Origin: an uncultured Desulfobacterales bacterium
Lineage (GTDB): Bacteria; Desulfobacterota; Desulfobacteria; Desulfobacterales; SURF-7
Assembly: GCA_964578935.1 (NCBI GenBank)
Contig: CAZOEW010000001.1
Span: 1 to 53,611, forward strand
Length of the DNA stretch: 53,611 nt
Direction of reading: 5' to 3'
The translations under genes and the position numbers were made by a program. The notes under the pieces were generated by a model. It had not been told where the DNA came from, ran no database searches, and was given only the letters and a program-made list of their open reading frames with translations. How positions within the stretch are numbered: position 1 is the first letter of the stretch; each line of letters begins with the position of its first letter. Shown one piece after another: positions 9,644 to 17,922 of this stretch.

Positions 9644-11296
9644 CTAAGAATTGAGAATCTTCTTGGCACTGTCGTCATTAACATCAGAGACATGAGGAAT
9701 ACCTGTCTCTTTAGCAGTCTCCCGGTTTCCAGAGAAGATGTCCGATCTTTCGATCCGGTTCAGAGAGAATTTTCTTGCTCCTGCCATGAGCTGCTGCAGG
9801 CCGCAAGCCAGTTTATCGGCCAAGGTCCAGAATGCGATTGCGCCGTAAGGAATATGTTTCATTTCATCTTTTCCTACCTTTTTTTCCACATCAAAATAGG
9901 AGGCAAAAATTTCCTTGGCGCTGTTTCCTACCTGTTGTACTGTTTTCGGCAGCTCATTCCAGTTGCCGCTTACGTCTGCCCGCCTTTCAGGATGAAGCGC
10001 CCCTTCAATGTTCGAGCCGACAAAACCCGGAATCATGATCGCTCTTCCCATGCAGACCAGTTTTGTAAACGGCGCACCAAGTGCAAGCGCCTTGAATATA
10101 TGGTCCTCAAGGGCAAAACCCCCGGCAAAGGACATATCAACGACATGCTGTCCTTTCGCTGACAGGATGCCGGCATACTCGTGTGCCTTTGAATGCAGAA
10201 GTATTGAAGGTACACCCCAGCTCTGCATCATGTTCCACGGGCTCATTCCGGTACCGCCGCCGGCGCCGTCAATTGTCAAGAGGTCAAGATTCGCGTCTGA
10301 AGCAAACTTTATCGCCATTGCCAGTTCTTCCATTCCATAAGAACCGGTTTTCAGGGTGATTCTTTTAAATCCGATGCTTCTGAGGTAATCCACACTGCTC
10401 ATGAAATCTTCACGCACCTGATCGACCGTACTCAGATTGGTTCCTCCAAGACGGCTGTGCCGGGCAAAGGATTTAATTGAACCGTTTTCAAAAGCTTTCT
10501 GGACTTCAGGAACGGTTGGATCCGGGTCGACTACATAGCCTCGCTCTTTCAGAAATATAGCGTAATCAAGACTTTCCACCTGTATCTCGCCGCCGATATC
10601 CTTGGCACCCTGACCCCACTTCAATTCGATAATGCATTTTTCGCCATATTTATCCACTACGAATTCCGCAACGCCATTGCGGGTATCTTCAACATTGAGC
10701 TGGACGATTATGGCGCCATAACCGTCAAAGTATCGAAGATATCCATCGATGCGCCTTTCCAGCTCCGGAGCGCTCTTGATTTTTCCTTTTTTCGCGGCAC
10801 CGGTTCCGATTTTCGATTGGCGGTCAACCCCCACAACATTTTCACCGATTACGACGGGAATGCCGCAAAGCGCTCCGCCGATTGCAAATGAATCCCAGTA
10901 TTTCTGGGCGATAAATGTCGAGCCGAGTGCTCCAGTCATCAGGGGCATGCGGATTTTTGTTTTTACTTTCGCGCCGAATTCCGATTCAAGGCTGACCTTT
11001 GGAAAGATGCAGTCATCCGGATCATTGCTCATGCCATTGCTCAGGCCATGTGCGCCATAGGCATACCCCTGGATTCGAAGCGAGTTGTAGGAAACGCCGA
11101 CATGGGTCGTATTGTTGGCGCCGGCTGTTACCAGACCGAAACTTCTTGGATAAAGCAGCTTTCGTCCGACAAGGCTGGAAAGCCATGTCTCGCATTTTCC
11201 CTGACAGTCTGCGCGGCAGAGCGTACACAGACTGGATTCTGCGGCATTACCCCGATTCGCGGTTCCAAGTGTATCATTGTTTTTTGAAAATCTCAT
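9644..11296 (-). CDS. FMN-binding glutamate synthase family protein (GltB2-like domain)
   Basis: ORF 9644-11317. ATG 11296 (MRFSKNN) has AAAGGAGAG upstream. Motifs: ELKWGQGAKDIGGE and IDGAGGGTGMSP (compare KxxQGAKPGxGG / GGTGASP of the GltS FMN domain). N-terminal Cys cluster CTLCRADCQGKC. Confidence 0.85.
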   Translation of the reverse strand: MRFSKNNDTLGTANRGNAAESSLCTLCRADCQGKCETWLSSLVGRKLLYPRSFGLVTAGANNTTHVGVSYNSLRIQGYAYGAHGLSNGMSNDPDDCIFPKVSLESEFGAKVKTKIRMPLMTGALGSTFIAQKYWDSFAIGGALCGIPVVIGENVVGVDRQSKIGTGAAKKGKIKSAPELERRIDGYLRYFDGYGAIIVQLNVEDTRNGVAEFVVDKYGEKCIIELKWGQGAKDIGGEIQVESLDYAIFLKERGYVVDPDPTVPEVQKAFENGSIKSFARHSRLGGTNLSTVDQVREDFMSSVDYLRSIGFKRITLKTGSYGMEELAMAIKFASDANLDLLTIDGAGGGTGMSPWNMMQSWGVPSILLHSKAHEYAGILSAKGQHVVDMSFAGGFALEDHIFKALALGAPFTKLVCMGRAIMIPGFVGSNIEGALHPERRADVSGNWNELPKTVQQVGNSAKEIFASYFDVEKKVGKDEMKHIPYGAIAFWTLADKLACGLQQLMAGARKFSLNRIERSDIFSGNRETAKETGIPHVSDVNDDSAKKILNS

Positions 11297-11371
11297 CTTT
11301 ACTCTCCTTTTGTTCAATACGGTTAAGACCGGCTGTTTTTTTCAACCGAATCTCTAAAATTTCAAAGGCTA

Positions 11372-11415
11372 TAAACGCAAAAAGACGTCTGTTCCTTTGA
11401 GAATCAGACGTCTTT
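11372..11415 (-). terminator. leader (attenuator) intrinsic terminator upstream of the glutamate synthase gene
   Basis: Minus strand: AAAGACGUCUG, a 13-nt loop, CAGACGUCUUU, then UUGCGUUUAU. It lies about 75 nt before the start codon at 11296. Confidence 0.7.
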
Positions 11416-11457
11416 GTCTATTTTTCTATTTAAAAGTTACCGCACGTCATTGTGCGG
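11405..11457 (-). promoter_or_regulatory. ANTAR-type dual hexaloop RNA element (P1 + P2), with P2 overlapping the terminator 5' arm
   Basis: Minus strand P1 is CCGCAC-AAUGAC-GUGCGG (11457-11440). P2 is UAGAC-AAAGAC-GUCUG (11420-11405). Both loops are 6 nt with A at position 1 and G at position 4. Confidence 0.65.
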
Positions 11458-11494
11458 ATAAAAAATTTTAACTTATAATTACATAAGCTCCTTA

Positions 11495-11523
11495 AAATTA
11501 CCTGTACTGATGTTAAAAGTCAA
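11495..11523 (-). promoter_or_regulatory. sigma70-like promoter candidate for the ANTAR-controlled leader
   Basis: Minus strand TTGACT (11523-11518), 17-nt spacer, TAATTT (11500-11495). Confidence 0.35.
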
Positions 11524-11670
11524 GCAGGAAATCGGATAAAAAATGATCGGATATGAATTTAGGCAGCTGGCGGATGCGGAAGATTCGGGATCAAACGGGT
11601 AACTACTGTTTTGTATCCGGGCGGAAATTGTCGCTTCCATGGAAGTCCCACGCGCTATGGGCGGAACAAT

Positions 11671-12390
11671 CTATTCCTGGTATAACTCATCTGAAAGTAT
11701 GATGGCTTCAGCGATATAACGAAGTGATTTCCGGGAATCCATGCTGCGTTTTTGTATCCATCGATAGGCTTCATCGACTTTCATGCCGCGGCTTTTCACG
11801 AGAATCTCTTTGGCCCGTTCAACCGTTTTTCTGGTTTCCAGCTCCTCACGGATAACTTTGGTCTTTACCATCAGTTCGGTATTTAAAATAGCGACGGCAG
11901 CCTGGTTTGCGACAGCTCGCAGAAGATTTACCTCGGTTTCGGAAAAATCATACGGTTTGGATGTAAAACAGTTCAACGCGCCGATCACCTTTTCATCTTT
12001 TAAGGTGAGCGGCACACCCATCATGGAGACAAGGCCCAGCTTTCGGGCCATCTCTTTTTCTTTAAACCTTTTGTTTTTCAAGACATTTTTAATGATAAGC
12101 GGTTGTTTCCGTGTAACCACATAGCCCACAACGCCTTCGTCGGGGTTCAATGAGCGGTCTTTAACATATTCCGGAGCGATTGCCTGGGTTGCCTTTAATC
12201 GAATTTTTGGAGGATCCTGCGTTTCATCGATCAGCCATAAAGAGCATATGGTTACATTCATGGCATTTGCTGTAACCATAACGATAAGCTTTAGCAGGTC
12301 TTCAAGATACAGCTCTGATGTTATGGCATGACTGATATCCGTAAGTGCCTTGATATATTCTCCATAAGTTTTTGTGTCCAGCTTTTCCAT
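11671..12390 (-). CDS. GAF domain + ANTAR domain RNA-binding antiterminator
   Basis: 239-aa ORF. The N-terminal ~150 aa are GAF-like (ICSLWLIDE..VVGYVV..PLIIKNV..MGVPL). The C-terminus ELETRKTVERAKEILVKSRGMKVDEAYRWIQKRSMDSRKSLRYIAEAII is an ANTAR signature. Confidence 0.85.
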   Translation of the reverse strand: MEKLDTKTYGEYIKALTDISHAITSELYLEDLLKLIVMVTANAMNVTICSLWLIDETQDPPKIRLKATQAIAPEYVKDRSLNPDEGVVGYVVTRKQPLIIKNVLKNKRFKEKEMARKLGLVSMMGVPLTLKDEKVIGALNCFTSKPYDFSETEVNLLRAVANQAAVAILNTELMVKTKVIREELETRKTVERAKEILVKSRGMKVDEAYRWIQKRSMDSRKSLRYIAEAIILSDELYQE

Positions 12391-12605
12391 CTGTCCTGCC
12401 GTATGGGCTGTGATAAGAATTGGTTGTAACCGTTTAAAAGCATCCAGGGTGTTCCGGGATAAAGCCTTCTGAAATCAATCTATAGAAATAATAAAAACTT
12501 TTCAACACCTCATCAAGCAGAAACACAAAATTGCGATTAGAAATCAGAAAATATGAGCTCGTTACACCAGGTATTCCGTCTCAGGGAAAGGGACGGTCTT
12601 TGCCC

Positions 12606-12635
12606 TTGACATTAAGAAATACTTACAAATATAAT
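12606..12635 (+). promoter_or_regulatory. consensus sigma70-type promoter for the amidotransferase gene
   Basis: TTGACA (12606-12611), 18-nt spacer, TATAAT (12630-12635). Both hexamers match the consensus. Confidence 0.5.
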
Positions 12636-12636
12636 T

Positions 12637-12660
12637 GATAATTATTTATAATTAATTATC
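12637..12660 (+). promoter_or_regulatory. perfect 8-bp inverted repeat (candidate operator) abutting the -10 element
   Basis: GATAATTA, 8 nt, TAATTATC (12637-12644 and 12653-12660). Confidence 0.4.
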
Positions 12661-12701
12661 CGGGAAGAGAAAGTTTGCCAAACGGTAAGGAGAAATAGAA
12701 T

Positions 12702-13829
12702 ATGTGCCGTCTGTTCGCAATAACATCGGATACGTTTATCTCTCCTGCCATGGGTTTCAAGGGATTGAATGCCATGCGGGAAGGATATGACGGCTCCGGC
12801 GTCGGCCTTCTATTGCGGGATCTTGGCGGCTCATTTGAAGCGATTAAAGAATTTCCGATCTTGTCCGGAATTTTCAGTGATTCAGGCTTGCGGACTCTTG
12901 ATCAATTCATGTTGGATATGGGGTTTACAACAAAATACAAAATTTCTTTCAAATTGCCGAAAGATCCGCCAAGAGGCGTTCCAAGAAGAGATATCTACCT
13001 GATCAGGGCATATGATTATCCCCTTGACTGGGAAAGGATGGAACAGAAAGAGCTGCATGATAATCTGATGAGGGTCCGGCTCCACCTCAAGAAAAAGGGC
13101 GAAGTAAACAGAGATATGATTATTTTTTCCTTTTGGCCGGATACCATTATGATTAAAGAGATCGGGGACCCCATTCAGGTGGCTGAATATTTACAGCTGG
13201 ATCGGAAGGAGCTCACGGCCCGGGTTATAATGGTCCAGGGGCGGCAAAATACCAATCATGATGTAGATCTCTATTCCTGCCATCCGTTTTTTCTACAGGG
13301 TTTTTCAACCATGGCAAACGGCGAGAACACCGCATTTGTAACGAATCGTGAATTTTTGATTTCAAGGGGGTTTCCGGGGTATAACGGTTATAGGTCTGAC
13401 TCGGAAATTTTTACACACACCCTGCATTATGCATGTTCAACACTGAAGCTTGGAATCGAAGCCTTCAAACATATCATAACACCTTTAAACCAGGAGTTGC
13501 TTGGTGATCATCCGGATGCCTCTTTTCTGAGGCATTTGAAATATTCCTGCAGGCAACTCATCATTGACGGACCCAATTGCGTTATCGGTTGTCTTCCGGA
13601 CCATTCCCTTTTTATGGTACAGGATCGAAAAAAACTCCGGCCGGGAGTTGTCGGCGGGGATCAGGGAATGTTTGTTTTCTCCTCTGAGGTTTGCGGTCTG
13701 GATGCCGTGATACCGGATCGCGACAAAACCAGAGATTTTCAGCCGATGCATCTGGATACGGTGGTTGTTGACCCGGAGCGGCAGGGTATCAAAATCTGCC
13801 GTCAGACAGATTCATTTCTGAAGAATTGA
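12702..13829 (+). CDS. class II (Ntn) glutamine amidotransferase, GltB1-like
   Basis: 375-aa ORF starting MCRLFAITS (Cys right after the initiator Met is the Ntn nucleophile) with AAGGAG upstream. It is paired with the FMN-domain gene nearby. Confidence 0.85.
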   Translation: MCRLFAITSDTFISPAMGFKGLNAMREGYDGSGVGLLLRDLGGSFEAIKEFPILSGIFSDSGLRTLDQFMLDMGFTTKYKISFKLPKDPPRGVPRRDIYLIRAYDYPLDWERMEQKELHDNLMRVRLHLKKKGEVNRDMIIFSFWPDTIMIKEIGDPIQVAEYLQLDRKELTARVIMVQGRQNTNHDVDLYSCHPFFLQGFSTMANGENTAFVTNREFLISRGFPGYNGYRSDSEIFTHTLHYACSTLKLGIEAFKHIITPLNQELLGDHPDASFLRHLKYSCRQLIIDGPNCVIGCLPDHSLFMVQDRKKLRPGVVGGDQGMFVFSSEVCGLDAVIPDRDKTRDFQPMHLDTVVVDPERQGIKICRQTDSFLKN

Positions 13830-13855: not shown

Positions 13856-14815
13856 TCAGGCCTCATGAGCTTTTCCGATTAAATCAACAATGCCCACCTT
13901 TTTCTTTTTAAGGTAAGTGGTTATTCCGCTATGGATCTCAACAAAAACATCGGGGTTTACAAACCAGGATGTTCCAATGCCCACCGCAGTTGCACCTGCA
14001 AGAACATATTCGATCACATCCCGCCAGTTTGAAATCCCTCCAATCCCGATGATCGGTATTTGCTTGCGGCGGCATTCCGGTATTTTTTTAAAACAGTCAT
14101 ATACCATAAAAAGGCCGATCGGTTTTATCGCCGGACCGGAAAGCCCTCCCACCACATTTCCCAGAAGCGGCTTGCCGGTATCGGTATTGATCGCCATCCC
14201 CCGTATGGTGTTAATCATGGAAAGCGCATCGGTACCTCCGGAAATAGCCGCTTTTGCGGGCACTGTAATATCGGTTATGTTCGGTGTCAGTTTGGTGATG
14301 ATAAGAAGACGTTGATCAACCCGTTTTTTTACGGTTTTAACGATGCGCTCCACCAGTTTGGGATCGGTTCCAAAAGCAGTGCCTCCTTTTTTGATATTCG
14401 GACAGGAGACATTGATCTCAATACCGGAAATAAGTTGACTCAGATCGGTATCACTCAGGCAGGAAGCAAGCTCACCGAATTCCTCAACAGAGTCTGCAGA
14501 AATGTTCACAAAAATCGGCAGATCAAAGTTGAGAAGACCGGGAAGTTCTTTTTTTGTAAAAAATGCGGCACCTTCATTTTGAAGGCCGATGGAATTGAGT
14601 ATGCCGGTCTGTGTTTCAACAATTCTAAATTCTTTGTTTCCTTCTTTGGGCTTCAGGGTAACGCCTTTGGTTACAAAGGCACCCAGTGCTGATACGATTT
14701 TGGGACTCTTTTTCAACACTTCGATTTCATTGCCATGCCCTGATGTTCCGGAAGCTGTCATTAACGGGCTTCTCAGTTGTTTGTCTTTAAGTTTCACATG
14801 GAGGATGTTATTCAT
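13856..14815 (-). CDS. pyrD: dihydroorotate dehydrogenase, class 1B catalytic subunit
   Basis: 319-aa ORF with SPLMTASGTSG, LNSIGLQNEG, EINVSCPNIKKGG, GGLSGPAIKP and IIGIGGI. The start ATG overlaps the stop of the upstream ORF (ATGA). Confidence 0.9.
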   Translation of the reverse strand: MNNILHVKLKDKQLRSPLMTASGTSGHGNEIEVLKKSPKIVSALGAFVTKGVTLKPKEGNKEFRIVETQTGILNSIGLQNEGAAFFTKKELPGLLNFDLPIFVNISADSVEEFGELASCLSDTDLSQLISGIEINVSCPNIKKGGTAFGTDPKLVERIVKTVKKRVDQRLLIITKLTPNITDITVPAKAAISGGTDALSMINTIRGMAINTDTGKPLLGNVVGGLSGPAIKPIGLFMVYDCFKKIPECRRKQIPIIGIGGISNWRDVIEYVLAGATAVGIGTSWFVNPDVFVEIHSGITTYLKKKKVGIVDLIGKAHEA

Positions 14816-15885
14816 AGTTGTTCCCAGTCAATTTCTTTTGAGTCAAAAAGAGGTCCATCAACACATACCCGGGAGTATCGGCTGCCTTTACTGCCTTTCC
14901 TGGTTCGGCAGACACAGGACATGCAGACACCGATTCCGCATCCCATTCTTTTTTCCAAAAGGACTTTCATCGGAATATTGAACTTTGTAGCGATATTTTT
15001 TAATGCGATCAGCATCGGTTTTGGACCACAGGCAAGAATCAAAATGGATTCCGTTTGTTTTAAACGGTTCAAAAACAGGCTGTAATGATCCACAACCAGA
15101 CCGACATGATAGTTTTTATGGTTTATCTTATCGCTCAGAATTTCGTTCTCCGTTGACTCCCTGGACAAGAAGATTTCATCCGGATTCAATCCGATTTTCG
15201 ATAATTCATTGATGTAAACATATGCTTTTTCGGATTCATCTGAAAACGTTTTTCCATAAGGAGCTTCCCGTAATGATTCAATCCGGTCGATACCGATAAA
15301 CGCTTTGAGTTTAAAAGAGTAAAATTTGAGGGCCTGCCCGAAAAAAACCAGGGGCGCCATGCCGACGCCGCCGCCGATAAGGTGCACTTCATCCACATTG
15401 TCAGACCGCCATTTGGGTATATTGATGAATTTTCCAAGAGGTCCCAGTATTTTTATCTGATTTCCGGGATTCAGGTTCTTCAGTTCATTTGTACCGATTC
15501 CGTCTTCTATGATTTTATAAAAGATTTCAAATTGGTGCGGATAAACCGTGTTGGTTATCGCTGCCAATTGAGCCGGGAGATGCAGTTTGTTATGATAACC
15601 CCATTCAAAATGTTTATAGTATGCCCGCTGAATTCCAAAAGGTCTTTTTAGAAAAGATCGGGCAGAGAGGTCCATCGCATGTTTCCGGTATTCAGATATC
15701 CGTTTTTCAGGAGAGCGGTTTCGTTTTTTTCGGTGACCTTCGGGCAGGGTGTCTATCATCACAAACTGTCCCGGACCGATCGTATGCATGTCCGGAGCAG
15801 TGAACTGCAGTTTGAAGTGCATGGGTTTGCCGTCCAATCCAACCGGCGTGTTTTGGATCACTTCCGCCTTGAAATGTTTTATCCG
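14812..15885 (-). other. PyrK-like domain of the fusion ORF (residues ~680-1036)
   Basis: Ferredoxin-reductase-like FAD/NAD motifs and a C-terminal Cys4 [2Fe-2S] motif. Internal ATGs at 15927 (M666) and 15918 (M669, with GGAG 3 nt upstream) could yield a stand-alone PyrK. Confidence 0.75.
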
Positions 15886-17922
15886 GTGTTTGGTATTTTT
15901 CCCCAAATCGGTTTTCATCGGCTCCATGTTGAAGAGGTGCCCGAATTGATCTGGATCGACCTCCGCTGCTTTTTTACAAATATCTTCAAAGCAGACATAG
16001 AAGCCCCTTGGCCATTTATCTGCCTGACTGATGTGTCTATAGGATTTCATCACACTTTTGTGCGGGAAGATCAGATAACAGATAATTTGAAACTCATGCC
16101 TGTCTTTTTGGAAAATATCCTCTGCTGCCTGTTTCAGGGCTTTTTCTTTTTCCGGGGAATAAAAACAGAAAAAGATTTTTCTCCCGTTTTTGTTTTCCGC
16201 AATAAAGTCGATATGGCCAAGGCTGCTGTCATGGATTTTGAAATCAGCAGTTTCTGTATGGATATCCAGAGTCGCGTCATGAAAGGAGCCTTCTGCAACG
16301 GATTTAATTTTATAATTATCTTTTAACAGGATGGCGCGAAGGAGGGACAGGCATATTCGATTGTATGCCCTGCGATTTATCCTTTTATCGGATATTGTTT
16401 CCCGGATTTCCTGCACGGATCGTTCGGCAAGAAGATTCTGCAATGAGGGTTTGATTAAATTCCCGGCATGGCATTTCACTTTTTCCGGCTGATCCGACCT
16501 TTCGTGGAAAGCGGCCATTTGAACAAATAATTCCACTTCGCGATAATCGTTCTTTCCAGATTTTTTTAAAATTTCTTTTTCAGTTTGCGACTTCCAGGTA
16601 AGAGAATAATAGTGATCCGACACACGGACTTTCTGTTTGTTTGACTTTTCGGCGATATCTGGGAAATTCGATCCTGCCGTCTCTGTTTTATACCCCATTT
16701 TTAAAAAAGTATGATGCAGTGTTTCCCCGTATTCTGTATTTTTGGTTCTATGCGCTAAAATTATTTTGCATGAATGGCCTGAGTGTTTCCTGATCCGGCT
16801 TAAAAAAGGCTTCAGTTTCTGAATATCGTCTTTTTCCGGAAGCGCTTCTGAATGCCATTTCAATAAATCCGTACAATTCATTTTAAGCCAGGCGCCCCAG
16901 AACGCTGATAAAATCGAATAATGATTGTCTCTATTATAAAGCGGATCAATCAATACATGCGTAATTTTTAGTTTTCGGGGAAAGGGTTCGGATCTTAAAT
17001 CCGTAAGATGAATATATGCCTGATCATTGGTGTTTTCAAATTCATCCATTGAATTCGCAAAGCCTGTAAAACCCAAAAGGGAATTTAATTCCTTCTTGCA
17101 GGTTAACACGGCAGCAAACTGCTTCTCAAAAGCCTTCCAGACATTGATCTCCTGTCCGGGTGATGGTGAAAAGCGATCAGAAGTTTTCCACCAGCGTGAC
17201 GCAGCGCCGGATTTCGCTGTTGTATTTTGTATCGTGATGCAGTTCGTAAGAATTCCCGTAAACACATATTGAAGTACTTCCCTGCATCTTACAGACGAGA
17301 TTTTATGAATTGCATTCAGCAGTTCAGCCAAAGACGCTAAATTTCGGCTTGTAAAAAAATCTTGAATGAAGAGGGCATCTTTTTTTTTAGAAAGGGTAAT
17401 TTTTTTTTCAGGATACCAATATTCGGGCGGAGCCTTCGATTCTGAAAGCTGTCGCTGGATCTGGAATTTTGACAGGCGCTTCAACTGGTTGAATCCACAA
17501 TATTGACAGGTGATCCTGACAGATTCAGGCCGTTCTTTTCGTCCTTCTTTCACCCATTTCAAATATTCGTAGTTTACTGGTTTTTTACATCCAGGGCATA
17601 TACCGGTATATCGGTTTTGTATATTTCCGGAAACTTTTTGTTGAATTTCTTCAAAAGCCTTTTTTAAAGAATATAAACCAACGGGCTGGGCTAAAACTTT
17701 TATCAGGAAAACAGCCACTGGATTGATGTCACCGGCCAATACTTTCGAACCGCGTTGAAGTGCCGTAACAACAGGAGCGGCTTCCCTGCAAAACAAATCA
17801 AGCAGAACATCTCCTGGCTGCATGTCTTTAAAGATTCTGTGGAGTTCATTGGACTGCTTTTGCCCCCAGTATGGATGAGAACGGGTAACACAATGTAAAA
17901 AAGGGGGCTGTTTCATATTCAA
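14812..17922 (-). CDS. pyrK: 1036-aa fusion ORF: methylase-like Zn-ribbon module + uncharacterised middle + PyrK-like FAD/[2Fe-2S] electron-transfer domain
   Basis: Uninterrupted ORF. Residues ~680-1036 are PyrK-like (GPGQFVMID, LKRPFGI, LIGGGVGMAPL, CGPKPM, CGIGVCMSCVC..VCVDGP). Residues 1-~420 are methylase-like (see separate features). The gene symbol applies to the C-terminal domain only. Confidence 0.8.
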   Translation of the reverse strand: MNMKQPPFLHCVTRSHPYWGQKQSNELHRIFKDMQPGDVLLDLFCREAAPVVTALQRGSKVLAGDINPVAVFLIKVLAQPVGLYSLKKAFEEIQQKVSGNIQNRYTGICPGCKKPVNYEYLKWVKEGRKERPESVRITCQYCGFNQLKRLSKFQIQRQLSESKAPPEYWYPEKKITLSKKKDALFIQDFFTSRNLASLAELLNAIHKISSVRCREVLQYVFTGILTNCITIQNTTAKSGAASRWWKTSDRFSPSPGQEINVWKAFEKQFAAVLTCKKELNSLLGFTGFANSMDEFENTNDQAYIHLTDLRSEPFPRKLKITHVLIDPLYNRDNHYSILSAFWGAWLKMNCTDLLKWHSEALPEKDDIQKLKPFLSRIRKHSGHSCKIILAHRTKNTEYGETLHHTFLKMGYKTETAGSNFPDIAEKSNKQKVRVSDHYYSLTWKSQTEKEILKKSGKNDYREVELFVQMAAFHERSDQPEKVKCHAGNLIKPSLQNLLAERSVQEIRETISDKRINRRAYNRICLSLLRAILLKDNYKIKSVAEGSFHDATLDIHTETADFKIHDSSLGHIDFIAENKNGRKIFFCFYSPEKEKALKQAAEDIFQKDRHEFQIICYLIFPHKSVMKSYRHISQADKWPRGFYVCFEDICKKAAEVDPDQFGHLFNMEPMKTDLGKNTKHRIKHFKAEVIQNTPVGLDGKPMHFKLQFTAPDMHTIGPGQFVMIDTLPEGHRKKRNRSPEKRISEYRKHAMDLSARSFLKRPFGIQRAYYKHFEWGYHNKLHLPAQLAAITNTVYPHQFEIFYKIIEDGIGTNELKNLNPGNQIKILGPLGKFINIPKWRSDNVDEVHLIGGGVGMAPLVFFGQALKFYSFKLKAFIGIDRIESLREAPYGKTFSDESEKAYVYINELSKIGLNPDEIFLSRESTENEILSDKINHKNYHVGLVVDHYSLFLNRLKQTESILILACGPKPMLIALKNIATKFNIPMKVLLEKRMGCGIGVCMSCVCRTRKGSKGSRYSRVCVDGPLFDSKEIDWEQL
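16663..17922 (-). other. N6/N4 DNA-methylase-like module with internal Zn ribbon (residues 1-~420)
   Basis: Motifs: HPYWGQK..GDVLLDLFCREAAPVVTALQRGSKVLAGDINPVA (motif I-like), CPGC..CQYC ribbon, FFTSRNLASLAELL, and LIDPLYNRDNHYSILSAFWGAWL (DPPY-like). Confidence 0.55.

What the first reader, a model, noticed from the sequence alone, without database searches (positions are those of the whole stretch)
11372..11523. Complete ANTAR antitermination switch (dual A..G hexaloop hairpins competing with a terminator) in the glutamate-synthase leader, next to its GAF-ANTAR regulator
These elements lie on the minus strand, between a TTGACT-17-TAATTT promoter candidate and the start codon at 11296:
- P1: CCGCAC-AAUGAC-GUGCGG (11457-11440).
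- A 19-nt linker.
- P2: UAGAC-AAAGAC-GUCUG (11420-11405).
- An intrinsic terminator: AAAGACGUCUG, 13-nt loop, CAGACGUCUUU, then UUGCGUUUAU (11415-11372).

Both loops are hexaloops with A at position 1 and G at position 4. That is the described signature of RNA bound by ANTAR domains. P2 is built from the 5' arm of the terminator, so the two structures are mutually exclusive.

The gene immediately upstream on the same strand encodes a one-component GAF+ANTAR protein. Together this looks like a self-contained, small-molecule-sensing (GAF) attenuator acting on one half of a split glutamate synthase. The ligand is unknown; a nitrogen-status metabolite is only a guess.
Basis: partly seen in the sequence, partly recalled or inferred. 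Interest (0 to 1): 0.7.

Follow-up and report, generated by a model that had tools for sequence, protein, structure and literature searches.

The report
ANTAR antitermination switch, GAF-ANTAR regulated
A short RNA leader that can fold either into two protein-binding hairpins or into a transcription stop signal sits between a small-molecule-sensing RNA-binding regulator and a glutamate-synthase-like gene. It is conserved across many sulfate-reducing bacteria, making it a solid new example of a known kind of nitrogen-gene switch whose sensor class has never been studied.

Summary
On the minus strand lie P1 (11457-11440), a 19-nt linker, P2 (11420-11405) and an 11-bp terminator (11415-11381 plus U-tract) that re-uses the P2 loop and 3' arm.

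The loose dual A..G hexaloop pattern is common by chance (9 seen, about 7 expected). Conservation is what makes this site convincing.
- 59 of 80 Desulfobacterales genomes carry one such site directly downstream of the orthologous GAF+ANTAR gene, mostly ahead of the same glutamate-synthase-related gene.
- A1, G4 and the closing AC..GU pairs are invariant or nearly so.
- P1 and the terminator show compensatory changes.
- A TTGAC -35 box lies upstream in 59 of 59 leaders.
- A covariance model built without the window or its close relatives finds this site alone (51.5 bits).

The same motif precedes glnA, gdhA and nitrate-transporter genes elsewhere. It is therefore the canonical ANTAR target of Ramesh et al. 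2012.

Verdict: a new member of a known kind. The regulator class (one-component GAF-ANTAR) is uncharacterized. Its GAF domain is closest to the glutamine-binding PtsP/EI-Ntr GAF.

Not established: the ligand, the direction of control, and the "split glutamate synthase" claim.

The parts
11495..11523 (-). Candidate sigma-70-type promoter of the leader: -35 TTGACT (11523-11518), 17-nt spacer, -10 TAATTT (11500-11495)
   Evidence: Sequence read. TTGAC lies within 130 nt upstream of P1 in 59 of 59 orthologous leaders, against 15% of random segments from the same loci. The simple consensus scan does not call it because the -10 matches only 3 of 6 positions. The transcription start has not been mapped.
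11440..11457 (-). P1 hairpin CCGCAC[AAUGAC]GUGCGG: 6-bp stem, hexaloop with A1 and G4, closing pairs A-U and C-G
   Evidence: -10.2 kcal/mol. Four of 6 pairs show compensatory changes across 37 leaders. Loop A1, loop G4 and the closing C-G are 59 of 59; the next pair's bases are A 57 of 59 and U 59 of 59.
11421..11439 (-). A/U-rich 19-nt linker between P1 and P2
   Evidence: Linker length is 8-40 nt (median 16) in 59 orthologous leaders, and its sequence is not conserved.
11405..11420 (-). P2 hairpin UAGAC[AAAGAC]GUCUG: 5-bp stem including a U-G wobble, hexaloop with A1 and G4. This is the antiterminator element.
   Evidence: -3.6 kcal/mol, weak on its own. GAC[AAnGnC]GUC is nearly invariant in 59 leaders. 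Its loop and 3' arm are the terminator's 5' arm.
11371..11415 (-). Intrinsic terminator: 5' arm AAAGACGUCUG (11415-11405), 13-nt loop with a small inner helix, 3' arm CAGACGUCUUU (11391-11381), tail UUGCGUUUAU
   Evidence: -19.5 kcal/mol, z = -4.7. 95.8% of cells are paired across 37 leaders. Compensatory changes occur at the positions that are P2 loop positions 3 and 5. These pairs were not used to select the sequences.
11671..12390 (-). One-component regulator gene, 239 aa: GAF domain (about 29-168), one long connecting helix, ANTAR domain (181-231)
   Evidence: Pfam GAF_2 1e-20 and ANTAR 8e-19, both above the gathering score. PDB sequence hits: PtsP GAF 3ci6 at 3e-15, and Rv1626, EutV and NasR for the ANTAR domain. 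AF2 model with pLDDT 80 and a continuous helix 151-201. More than 5800 homologs.
9644..11296 (-). Regulated gene: 550-aa glutamate-synthase-related FMN-domain protein (GltB2-type) with an N-terminal C-x2-C-x3-C-x3-C motif, effectively monocistronic
   Evidence: Pfam PF01645 at 2.6e-14, covering only profile positions 188-309 of 369. Source names are "glutamate synthase-related protein" and "FMN-binding glutamate synthase family protein". Orthologs align from residue 1, which supports the ATG at 11296. In 18 loci the conserved next gene downstream is convergent.
12702..13829 (+). Divergent gene for a possible class-II (Ntn, N-terminal Met-Cys) glutamine amidotransferase-like protein. Its link to the switch is unproven.
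   Evidence: GATase_2 only at E = 0.0033, below cut-off. Profile against the PDB gives E = 0.06 and 0.28, to two class-II amidotransferases. It is present next to the regulator in 9 of 80 loci. No ANTAR site in its leader.

Best explanation
This is a protein-dependent transcription attenuator of the ANTAR class.

Inferred mechanism:
1. Transcription starts at a conserved promoter about 30 nt upstream of P1.
2. The nascent leader first forms P1 and then the weak P2 hairpin.
3. If nothing holds P2, its loop and 3' arm are captured by the downstream arm CAGACGUCUUU. This forms an 11-bp terminator followed by a U-tract, and RNA polymerase stops before the glutamate-synthase-related gene. That is the default OFF state.
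4. When the adjacent GAF+ANTAR protein is in its active state, it binds the two AC[AAnGnC]GU hexaloop hairpins. It is presumably a dimer held by its long connecting helix.
5. Binding stabilises P2, blocks terminator formation and allows read-through (ON).
6. The GAF domain sets the active state by binding a small molecule. Glutamine and/or 2-oxoglutarate are the best leads, because the GAF domain is closest to the PtsP/EI-Ntr and NifA GAF domains.

What is shown here:
- the RNA elements and their mutual exclusivity
- their conservation and covariation
- the regulator's domain make-up
- the conserved adjacency of regulator gene and site

What is inferred:
- binding of this particular protein to this RNA
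- read-through as the outcome
- the ligand and the sign of its effect
For: - Elements and energetics.
- Terminator helix: 95.8% paired, with compensatory changes at P2-loop positions.
- P1: compensatory changes at 4 of 6 pairs.
- Loop and closing pairs: A1, G4 and the closing AC..GU are invariant or nearly so in 59 leaders. These are the features shown by mutagenesis to be required for EutV antitermination (PMC3369931; PMC8934654).
- Distribution: one site per locus, always directly downstream of the GAF-ANTAR gene, in 59 of 80 Desulfobacterales genomes and nowhere else in the 4-kb flanks.
- Leave-out model: finds only this site in the window (51.5 bits).
- Other contexts: the same motif plus terminator precedes glnA, gdhA, nitrate-type binding-protein and other genes. 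The gdhA sites have a divergent GAF-ANTAR paralog alongside (L086, L130, L144, L186).
- Regulator: ANTAR domain above Pfam threshold. It aligns with EutV and keeps the equivalents of K143, M172 and R175. A long helix links GAF to ANTAR. It is the only ANTAR protein in the window.
- GAF domain: closest to the PtsP and NifA GAF domains. The EI-Ntr GAF binds glutamine (PMC4848567).
Against: - There are no experimental data of any kind for this locus.
- The bare motif is frequent by chance.
- The 19-nt linker (8-40 nt in the family) is longer than the 5-12 nt range of the E. faecalis eut leaders. For EutV, a 14-nt linker, or a 20-nt extension of the linker, impaired antitermination.
- Three EutV RNA-contact positions differ here: R168 to Q, N173 to D, R177 to S. 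The last two also differ in Rv1626 and NasR.
- 21 of 80 orthologous regulators have no adjacent site, so adjacency is not obligatory.
- GAF domains bind very diverse ligands, and the structural neighbours are generic.
- No curated Rfam family matched.
Confidence: 0.75

Rival explanations
1. The RNA is a genuine ANTAR-type attenuator, but it is controlled in trans by a different ANTAR protein encoded elsewhere in the genome, such as a REC-ANTAR response regulator of a nitrogen two-component cascade. The neighbouring GAF-ANTAR protein would then act on other targets or only modulate.
For: The loop and closing-pair consensus is the generic ANTAR one. It is also found ahead of nitrate-type transporter genes in high-GC contigs, and ahead of glnA with no GAF-ANTAR gene in the flanks. 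21 of 80 orthologous GAF-ANTAR genes have no adjacent site. Only 53.6 kb of this genome could be examined.
Against: The regulator gene and the site are adjacent in 59 of 80 genomes across several families. A GAF-ANTAR paralog also sits next to the gdhA sites. There is no other ANTAR protein in the window.
Confidence: 0.12
2. The ANTAR protein binds the two hairpins, but the main output is not transcription read-through. Instead it changes mRNA stability or translation of the downstream gene, as proposed for actinobacterial ANTAR RNAs.
For: Translation-level ANTAR targets have been described (bioRxiv 10.1101/660928, abstract listed; Figure S3 legend of PMC3369931).
Against: The conserved helix that overlaps P2 is always followed by a U-tract and lies 70-150 nt upstream of the start codon. 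It does not overlap the ribosome-binding site.
Confidence: 0.05
3. No regulator is involved. The hairpins are simply the intrinsic terminator of the upstream regulator gene plus a fortuitous extra hairpin, or a constitutive attenuator.
For: The dual hexaloop pattern arises by chance at about 7 per window. The MFE structure is P1 plus the terminator.
Against: A conserved -35 box lies between the regulator gene and P1 in 59 of 59 leaders. The P1 loop and closing pairs are invariant without any terminator constraint, while the P1 stem covaries. The same motif recurs ahead of unrelated nitrogen genes.
Confidence: 0.04
4. The leader is a metabolite-binding riboswitch or a leader-peptide attenuator rather than a protein-binding element.
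For: There is a weak sub-threshold match to Thr_leader (26.8 bits against a gathering score of 55). The match is driven by the terminator.
Against: No Rfam family reaches threshold. The conserved part is only two 5-6-bp hairpins with a variable, unconserved linker, which is too small for a ligand pocket. I did not look for a conserved leader ORF.
Confidence: 0.02

Closest known systems
EutV/EutW-controlled eut leaders of Enterococcus faecalis, the ANTAR dual-hexaloop antiterminator (Ramesh et al. 2012, PMC3369931; Walshe et al. 2022, PMC8934654)
   Same: Two short hairpins with hexaloops carrying A1 and G4. Sequence-specific closing pairs A-U and C-G (AC..GU). P2 embedded in the 5' half of an intrinsic terminator. 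An ANTAR protein with a coiled-coil-type helix ahead of a three-helix bundle.
   Different: The regulator here is a one-component GAF-ANTAR protein, not a phosphorylated REC-ANTAR response regulator. The linker is 19 nt (8-40 nt in the family) against 5-12 nt. There is a single site ahead of a single gene rather than four sites in one locus. The target is a nitrogen-assimilation-type gene, not ethanolamine use.
NasR (NIT-ANTAR) and the nasF leader of Klebsiella oxytoca; NasS/NasT systems
   Same: NasR is a one-component sensor-ANTAR protein that acts on a hexaloop hairpin upstream of a terminator in a nitrogen-assimilation leader. The exact loop pattern used here also retrieves leaders of nitrate-type binding-protein genes in high-GC contigs.
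   Different: The sensor domain is NIT (nitrate/nitrite), or a partner protein NasS, rather than GAF. The targets are nitrate and nitrite assimilation genes.
Predicted ANTAR sites ahead of glutamate synthase and "glutamate synthase-like" genes in Firmicutes (Desulfotomaculum reducens, Carboxydothermus hydrogenoformans, Desulfitobacterium hafniense, Candidatus Desulforudis; Table S2 of PMC3369931)
   Same: The same kind of RNA ahead of the same kind of gene, often next to an ANTAR regulator gene.
   Different: Where the table names a neighbouring regulator, it is an ANTAR response regulator. I did not check the regulators of the other listed genomes. Term searches of their supplementary files found no Desulfococcus, Desulfobacterium, Desulfatibacillum, Desulfosarcina or Desulfobacula, and no mention of GAF.
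GAF domains of PtsP (EI-Ntr) and NifA
   Same: They are the closest relatives of the sensor domain: 29-30% identity to 3ci6 over the whole domain, and NCBIfam nifA and PtsP models at 1e-16 and 1e-13. Both report nitrogen status. Glutamine binds the EI-Ntr GAF (PMC4848567).
   Different: Their outputs are a phosphotransferase or a sigma-54 activator, not an RNA-binding domain. Conservation of ligand-contacting residues was not tested.

Membership tests
ANTAR-target dual-hairpin antiterminator RNA (Ramesh et al. 2012) | Two short stem-loops, each with a hexanucleotide terminal loop | tested here: met
   P1 has a 6-bp stem and P2 a 5-bp stem, both with 6-nt loops. Conserved in 59 orthologous leaders.
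ANTAR-target dual-hairpin antiterminator RNA (Ramesh et al. 2012) | A at loop position 1 and G at loop position 4 in both loops | tested here: met
   The loops are AAUGAC and AAAGAC. In 59 leaders P1 has A1 59/59 and G4 59/59; P2 has A1 57/59 and G4 59/59.
ANTAR-target dual-hairpin antiterminator RNA (Ramesh et al. 2012) | Sequence-conserved closing base pairs of the stems (A-U then C-G, i.e. AC[loop]GU, in the eut leaders) | tested here: met
   Both hairpins here read AC[loop]GU. Closing C-G is 59/59 in both hairpins. The A-U pair is 59/59 in P2; in P1 its bases are A 57/59 and U 59/59. The feature is described in PMC3369931.
ANTAR-target dual-hairpin antiterminator RNA (Ramesh et al. 2012) | P2 shares nucleotides with the 5' arm of an intrinsic terminator (mutually exclusive folds), followed by a U-tract | tested here: met
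   The P2 loop and 3' arm form the terminator's 5' arm. The terminator helix is 95.8% paired, with compensatory changes, in 37 leaders.
ANTAR-target dual-hairpin antiterminator RNA (Ramesh et al. 2012) | Short inter-hairpin linker (5-12 nt in E. faecalis; 3 or 14 nt impaired EutV) | tested here: inconclusive
   The linker is 19 nt here and 8-40 nt (median 16) in the family. That is outside the EutV optimum, but the published seed alignment allowed a variable distance.
ANTAR-target dual-hairpin antiterminator RNA (Ramesh et al. 2012) | An ANTAR-domain protein encoded in the same genome | tested here: met
   The adjacent gene 11671-12390(-) scores 67.6 bits on PF03861 against a cut-off of 27.3.
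ANTAR-target dual-hairpin antiterminator RNA (Ramesh et al. 2012) | Match to a curated covariance model of the family | tested here: inconclusive
   No Rfam 15 family reached threshold, and no ANTAR-type family appeared even at E<=10. I used models built here instead: R1 59.1 bits and leave-out R2 51.5 bits.
ANTAR-target dual-hairpin antiterminator RNA (Ramesh et al. 2012) | Specific binding by the ANTAR protein and protein-dependent read-through | not testable with these tools
   Needs EMSA, in vitro transcription, or reporter or Term-seq experiments.
ANTAR-domain RNA-binding regulators (PF03861) | ANTAR three-helix bundle preceded by a long dimerisation-type helix | tested here: met
   Pfam hit. 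AF2 model with helix 151-201, then helices 205-219 and 223-238, at pLDDT 82-94 in that region. Prediction only; the dimer was not modelled.
ANTAR-domain RNA-binding regulators (PF03861) | Conservation of residues that contact RNA in EutV (K143, R168, M172, N173, R175, R177) | tested here: inconclusive
   In the alignment to 6wsh, K, M and R (equivalents of 143, 172, 175) are kept, while 168 is Q, 173 is D and 177 is S. D at position 173 is also found in Rv1626 and NasR.
GAF small-molecule sensor domains | GAF fold | tested here: met
   GAF_2 at 1e-20. Foldseek TM 0.73-0.78 (normalised by target) to the PtsP GAF 3ci6.
GAF small-molecule sensor domains | Identified ligand | not testable with these tools
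   Only a lead by similarity to the PtsP and NifA GAF domains.
Glutamate synthase (GltB FMN domain plus class-II amidotransferase domain) | FMN-binding synthase domain (PF01645) recognisably like GltS | tested here: inconclusive
   PF01645 scores 53.6 bits, above cut-off, but covers only profile positions 188-309 of 369. No NCBIfam hit. No GltS hit by sequence or profile in the PDB. The AF2 model has pLDDT 44 and Foldseek returns only generic TIM barrels at E>0.001.
Glutamate synthase (GltB FMN domain plus class-II amidotransferase domain) | Partner Ntn-type glutamine amidotransferase subunit | tested here: inconclusive
   12702-13829(+) starts Met-Cys. GATase_2 at E = 0.0033 is below cut-off. 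The profile against the PDB gives E = 0.06 and 0.28 to class-II amidotransferases. It is a neighbour in only 9 of 80 loci. No GXGXG or GltD-type gene was found in the window survey.

The most novel reading that the evidence does not exclude
The 239-aa GAF-ANTAR protein is a direct, one-component sensor of a central nitrogen-status metabolite: glutamine and/or 2-oxoglutarate, as in the related PtsP/EI-Ntr GAF. It would convert that signal straight into transcription read-through of a GltB2-type enzyme gene. In relatives, paralogs would do the same for gdhA. This would be a nitrogen-control route in Desulfobacterota that bypasses the PII/NtrBC and sigma-54 machinery. It would also be the first defined ligand, RNA target and mechanism for the large but uncharacterized GAF-ANTAR class. 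Its long and variable linkers imply a binding geometry different from EutV.
Probability: 0.3. Interest if true: 0.6.

Novelty: new member of a known kind. Interest (0 to 1): 0.42.

Why it matters
ANTAR antitermination is an established mechanism. Every characterized regulator, however, senses through a receiver or pseudo-receiver domain, a NIT domain or a LOV domain. The papers I could read (2012, 2020 and a 2025 review) describe no characterized GAF-ANTAR protein, although it is one of the commonest architectures.

This locus gives a clean, minimal and highly conserved pairing of one GAF-ANTAR protein with one cis-linked target RNA. It is found in at least 59 species-level genomes and in many metagenome contigs. 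There is also a concrete ligand hypothesis, glutamine or 2-oxoglutarate.

It is therefore a ready experimental system for three questions:
- how a GAF domain gates ANTAR RNA binding
- whether the long linkers fit the "successive binding" model proposed for EutV
- how sulfate-reducing Desulfobacterales regulate ammonium assimilation

It also flags the GltB2-type "glutamate synthase-related" protein as nitrogen-regulated, which is a clue to the function of a poorly understood enzyme family.

Tried and rejected
1. Rfam scan at E<=10 of 11000-12800. No ANTAR-type family appeared, only sub-threshold noise (Thr_leader at 26.8 against 55 bits).

2. Treating the dual A..G hexaloop pattern as significant by itself. 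Rejected: 9 observed against about 7 expected. Even with a terminator required, shuffles give 0.16 per window.

3. Looking for a second site in the window, including the leader of the divergent GATase-like gene and upstream of the regulator. None found.

4. Consensus promoter and terminator scan. It missed both the promoter (weak -10) and the terminator (13-nt loop), and it called P1 itself "terminator-like". It was not informative for this site.

5. Identity of the target protein.
- phmmer and profile searches against PDB sequences found no GltS.
- NCBIfam returned nothing.
- The AF2 model from a shallow alignment (84-97% identity) was poor, pLDDT 44.
- Its Foldseek matches were generic TIM barrels above E = 0.001 and were disregarded.

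6. Identity of the GATase-like protein. Only sub-threshold hits.

7. Literature search with the word-start term "ANTAR". It was swamped by "Antarctic" and was repeated with whole-word matching. That found no paper on a GAF-ANTAR regulator or on ANTAR control in sulfate reducers.

8. Whole-genome regulon of the source organism.
Full report
**1. Observation**

Reading 11200-11700 on the minus strand confirms each element at the stated coordinates:
- a TTGACT-17-TAATTT promoter candidate (11523-11495)
- P1 CCGCAC[AAUGAC]GUGCGG (11457-11440)
- a 19-nt A/U-rich linker
- P2 UAGAC[AAAGAC]GUCUG (11420-11405)
- an 11-bp helix AAAGACGUCUG/CAGACGUCUUU (11415-11405 with 11391-11381) around a 13-nt loop, followed by UUGCGUUUAU
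- ATG at 11296 behind a GGAGAG ribosome-binding site

The only discrepancy is one base: the tail ends at 11371.

RNAfold places P1 and the terminator in the minimum-energy structure (-51.5 kcal/mol, z = -4.4). On their own, P2 is weak (-3.6 kcal/mol) and the terminator strong (-19.5 kcal/mol). Without a stabilising factor the leader should therefore terminate.

**2. Is it more than chance?**

The pattern by itself is not. Two A..G hexaloop hairpins within 40 nt occur 9 times in the window, against 6.9 +/- 2.7 in shuffles. Requiring an overlapping terminator still gives 0.16 per shuffled window. The case rests on context and conservation.

**3. Flanking genes**

- 11671-12390(-) encodes a 239-aa GAF+ANTAR protein. 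Both domains score well above the Pfam cut-offs.
- 9644-11296(-) carries a partial Glu_synthase PF01645 domain. Databases name it [quoted passage not shown].
- The regulator family is large and unusually conserved: more than 5800 hits, with 70-85% identity across Desulfobacterales.

**4. Comparative evidence**

I fetched 80 genome loci around orthologs of the regulator.
- In 58 of them a glt-like gene lies directly downstream on the same strand.
- A strict scan found AC[A..G..]GU hairpins in tandem in 37 leaders. In each, the P2 loop and 3' arm (consensus AAAGGCGUCU) reappear as the 5' arm of a helix closed by AGRCGCCUUU plus a U-tract.
- Pair counts on the alignment: P1 has compensatory changes at 4 of 6 pairs (CG, GC, UA and GU types).
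- The terminator helix was not used to select the sequences. It is 95.8% paired, with compensatory changes exactly at P2-loop positions 3 and 5. In the window itself, the A at loop position 5 is matched by a U in the 3' arm.
- Slid-partner controls collapse to 26-63% paired.

A covariance model of P1-linker-P2 (R1) gave these results.
- It finds one site in the window (59.1 bits); the next hit scores 12 bits and lies inside a coding region.
- It finds one site in each of 59 of the 80 loci, always just downstream of the regulator gene and never elsewhere in the flanks.
- In that 59-sequence alignment, A1 and G4 are 59/59 in P1, and 57/59 and 59/59 in P2.
- The closing C-G pair is 59/59 in both hairpins. 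The adjacent A-U pair is 59/59 in P2; in P1 its bases are A 57/59 and U 59/59.
- A leave-out model, built without the window and L001-L007, still scores the window site 51.5 bits (E about 2e-13) as the only credible hit.

**5. Promoter**

Anchoring the leaders on P1 shows cTTGACA, with a TAAnnT-type -10 about 17 nt later, in essentially all of them.
- TTGAC occurs within 130 nt upstream of P1 in 59 of 59 leaders, against 15% of random segments.
- With a TAnnnT hexamer also required at 16-18 nt, the figures are 20 of 59 against 0.5%.

A simple consensus scan misses it because the -10 is weak.

**6. What class of RNA is this?**

A pattern scan of metagenome contigs with the two conserved loops returned 120 stretches, 85 of them well-formed (hairpins plus terminator). 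Of those 85, 58 precede a glt-like gene, often with the regulator upstream.

The rest precede:
- glutamine synthetase
- NADP-glutamate dehydrogenase, with a divergent GAF-ANTAR paralog alongside
- NMT1_2 nitrate-type binding proteins, in high-GC contigs
- flpD/mvhD-like genes
- a porin

These identities were confirmed by Pfam, and the sites score 17-48 bits with the leave-out model.

This matches the picture in Ramesh et al. 2012 (PMC3369931):
- dual hexaloop hairpins with A1 and G4
- sequence-specific AC..GU closing pairs
- P2 inside the terminator

The site is therefore a canonical ANTAR target RNA. Term searches of that paper's supplementary files found no Desulfococcus, Desulfobacterium, Desulfatibacillum, Desulfosarcina or Desulfobacula entries and no mention of GAF.

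**7. The regulator**

- The ANTAR domain aligns with Rv1626 (1s8n), EutV (6wsh) and NasR (4akk).
- Of the EutV RNA-contact residues, the equivalents of K143, M172 and R175 are kept. The equivalents of R168, N173 and R177 are Q, D and S.
- An AF2 model (pLDDT 80) shows a GAF fold, one continuous 51-residue helix (151-201) and the ANTAR bundle. This is the coiled-coil-type coupling seen in other ANTAR proteins.
- No full-length GAF-ANTAR structure appears in the PDB.
- The GAF domain is closest to the PtsP/EI-Ntr GAF (3ci6: 3e-15, 29-30% identity) and matches the NifA N-terminal GAF.
- The EI-Ntr GAF binds glutamine, and a reciprocal alpha-ketoglutarate effect is cited for E. coli (PMC4848567).
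- This makes glutamine or 2-oxoglutarate the best ligand lead, and no more than a lead.
- According to the 2012 paper, a 2020 paper and a 2025 review, no GAF-ANTAR protein has been characterized. Whole-word literature searches found none either.

**8. Mechanism proposed**

The default state is termination. The active GAF-ANTAR protein, probably a dimer, binds P1 and then P2, holds P2 closed, prevents the terminator and lets RNA polymerase read into the GltB2-type gene. The GAF ligand sets the active state.

The sign of control is unknown. By analogy with GS-GOGAT logic and EI-Ntr, low glutamine or high 2-oxoglutarate would give ON. Substrate induction is equally possible.

- Shown: the RNA anatomy, exclusivity, conservation and covariation, the domain architecture, and the conserved adjacency.
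- Inferred: binding, read-through, the ligand and the sign.

**9. What is not supported**

The "split glutamate synthase" claim is unproven.
- The target gave no GltS hit by sequence or profile in the PDB, and its fold model was poor.
- The divergent gene 12702-13829(+) is only marginally like class-II amidotransferases. It is a neighbour in 9 of 80 loci.
- No further glutamate-synthase parts or nitrogen genes lie in the window, which is otherwise housekeeping.
- The glt-like gene is effectively monocistronic.

"Self-contained" is plausible for this window: one site, one ANTAR protein. It cannot be settled without the rest of the genome. Also, 21 of 80 orthologous regulators lack an adjacent site.

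**10. Differences from the EutV paradigm**

- The sensor is one-component GAF rather than REC.
- The linker is 19 nt here and 8-40 nt in the family, against 5-12 nt in E. faecalis. There a 14-nt linker, or a 20-nt extension of the linker, impaired function.
- Some orthologous leaders carry a third hexaloop hairpin upstream of P1.

**11. Verdict**

This is a real, strongly conserved ANTAR antitermination switch. As an RNA it is a new member of a known kind. It is attached to an uncharacterized regulator class, which gives it moderate interest as an experimental entry point.

Noticed in passing
window 12606-12635 (+): A perfect 12-of-12 sigma-70 consensus, TTGACA-18-TATAAT, lies about 65 nt upstream of the GATase-like gene 12702-13829(+). 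That leader has no ANTAR site.
   Followed up: partly
L014, L017, L020, L034, L047 (about 12-23 nt upstream of P1); similar hairpins visible in L008, L009, L012, L015, L023: A subset of orthologous leaders has a third hexaloop hairpin with A1 and G4, mostly of the type GUC[AAYGRN]GAC, between the promoter and P1. These leaders therefore carry three ANTAR-type hairpins.
   Followed up: partly
L086, L130, L144, L186 (metagenome contigs): The same dual-hairpin and terminator motif precedes an NADP-glutamate dehydrogenase gene. A divergently transcribed GAF-ANTAR paralog (41-45% identity to the window's regulator) lies directly upstream.
   Followed up: partly
L102, L113, L147, L160, L163, L191 (metagenome contigs): In these contigs both hairpins read AGAC[AAAGGC]GUCU or AGAC[AAGGGC]GUCU, and each is followed by an extra GC-rich hairpin. 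In five of them a glutamine synthetase gene follows (Pfam-confirmed for L102; L160 ends before any ORF). No GAF-ANTAR gene was found in the flanks.
   Followed up: partly
L085, L116, L129, L179 (metagenome contigs): The motif also precedes a cluster that starts with an flpD/mvhD-like gene. In my reading this is followed by metV-like, metF-like and Cys-rich 'MPSKYVIH...' genes, but only the FlpD identity was checked with Pfam.
   Followed up: no
L098, L125, L131, L140, L153 (high-GC metagenome contigs): The same loop consensus with longer GC-rich terminators precedes NMT1_2 nitrate/sulfonate-type periplasmic binding proteins. These look like NasT/NasR-type nitrate-assimilation leaders, which suggests the AC[AAnGGC]GU consensus is generic to ANTAR targets.
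   Followed up: partly
window 13856-17922 (-): A 1036-aa ORF (14812-17922) combines weak N-terminal methyltransferase-like similarity, a long unassigned middle part and a C-terminal PyrK-like electron-transfer domain. It overlaps the downstream pyrD-type dihydroorotate dehydrogenase gene (13856-14815) by 4 nt.
   Followed up: no
window 11296-11317 (-): The mechanical ORF list starts the glt-like gene at TTG 11317. Orthologs align from the ATG at 11296, which has a GGAGAG ribosome-binding site, so 11296 is the likelier start.
   Followed up: yes
L010, L024, L025, L031, L033, L038, L041, L042, L044, L052, L056, L069, L072, L078 and others: 21 of 80 orthologous GAF-ANTAR genes have no detectable site next to them. 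In several the downstream gene is convergent, and in three the contig ends. Their targets, if any, must lie elsewhere.
   Followed up: partly
loci with the glt-like gene; representative L026:6793-8175 (-): In 18 loci a gene convergent with the glt-like gene lies downstream. It encodes a roughly 434-aa protein that I read as having a KaiC/RecA-like N-terminal part and an XRE-type helix-turn-helix, but I did not check this with Pfam.
   Followed up: no
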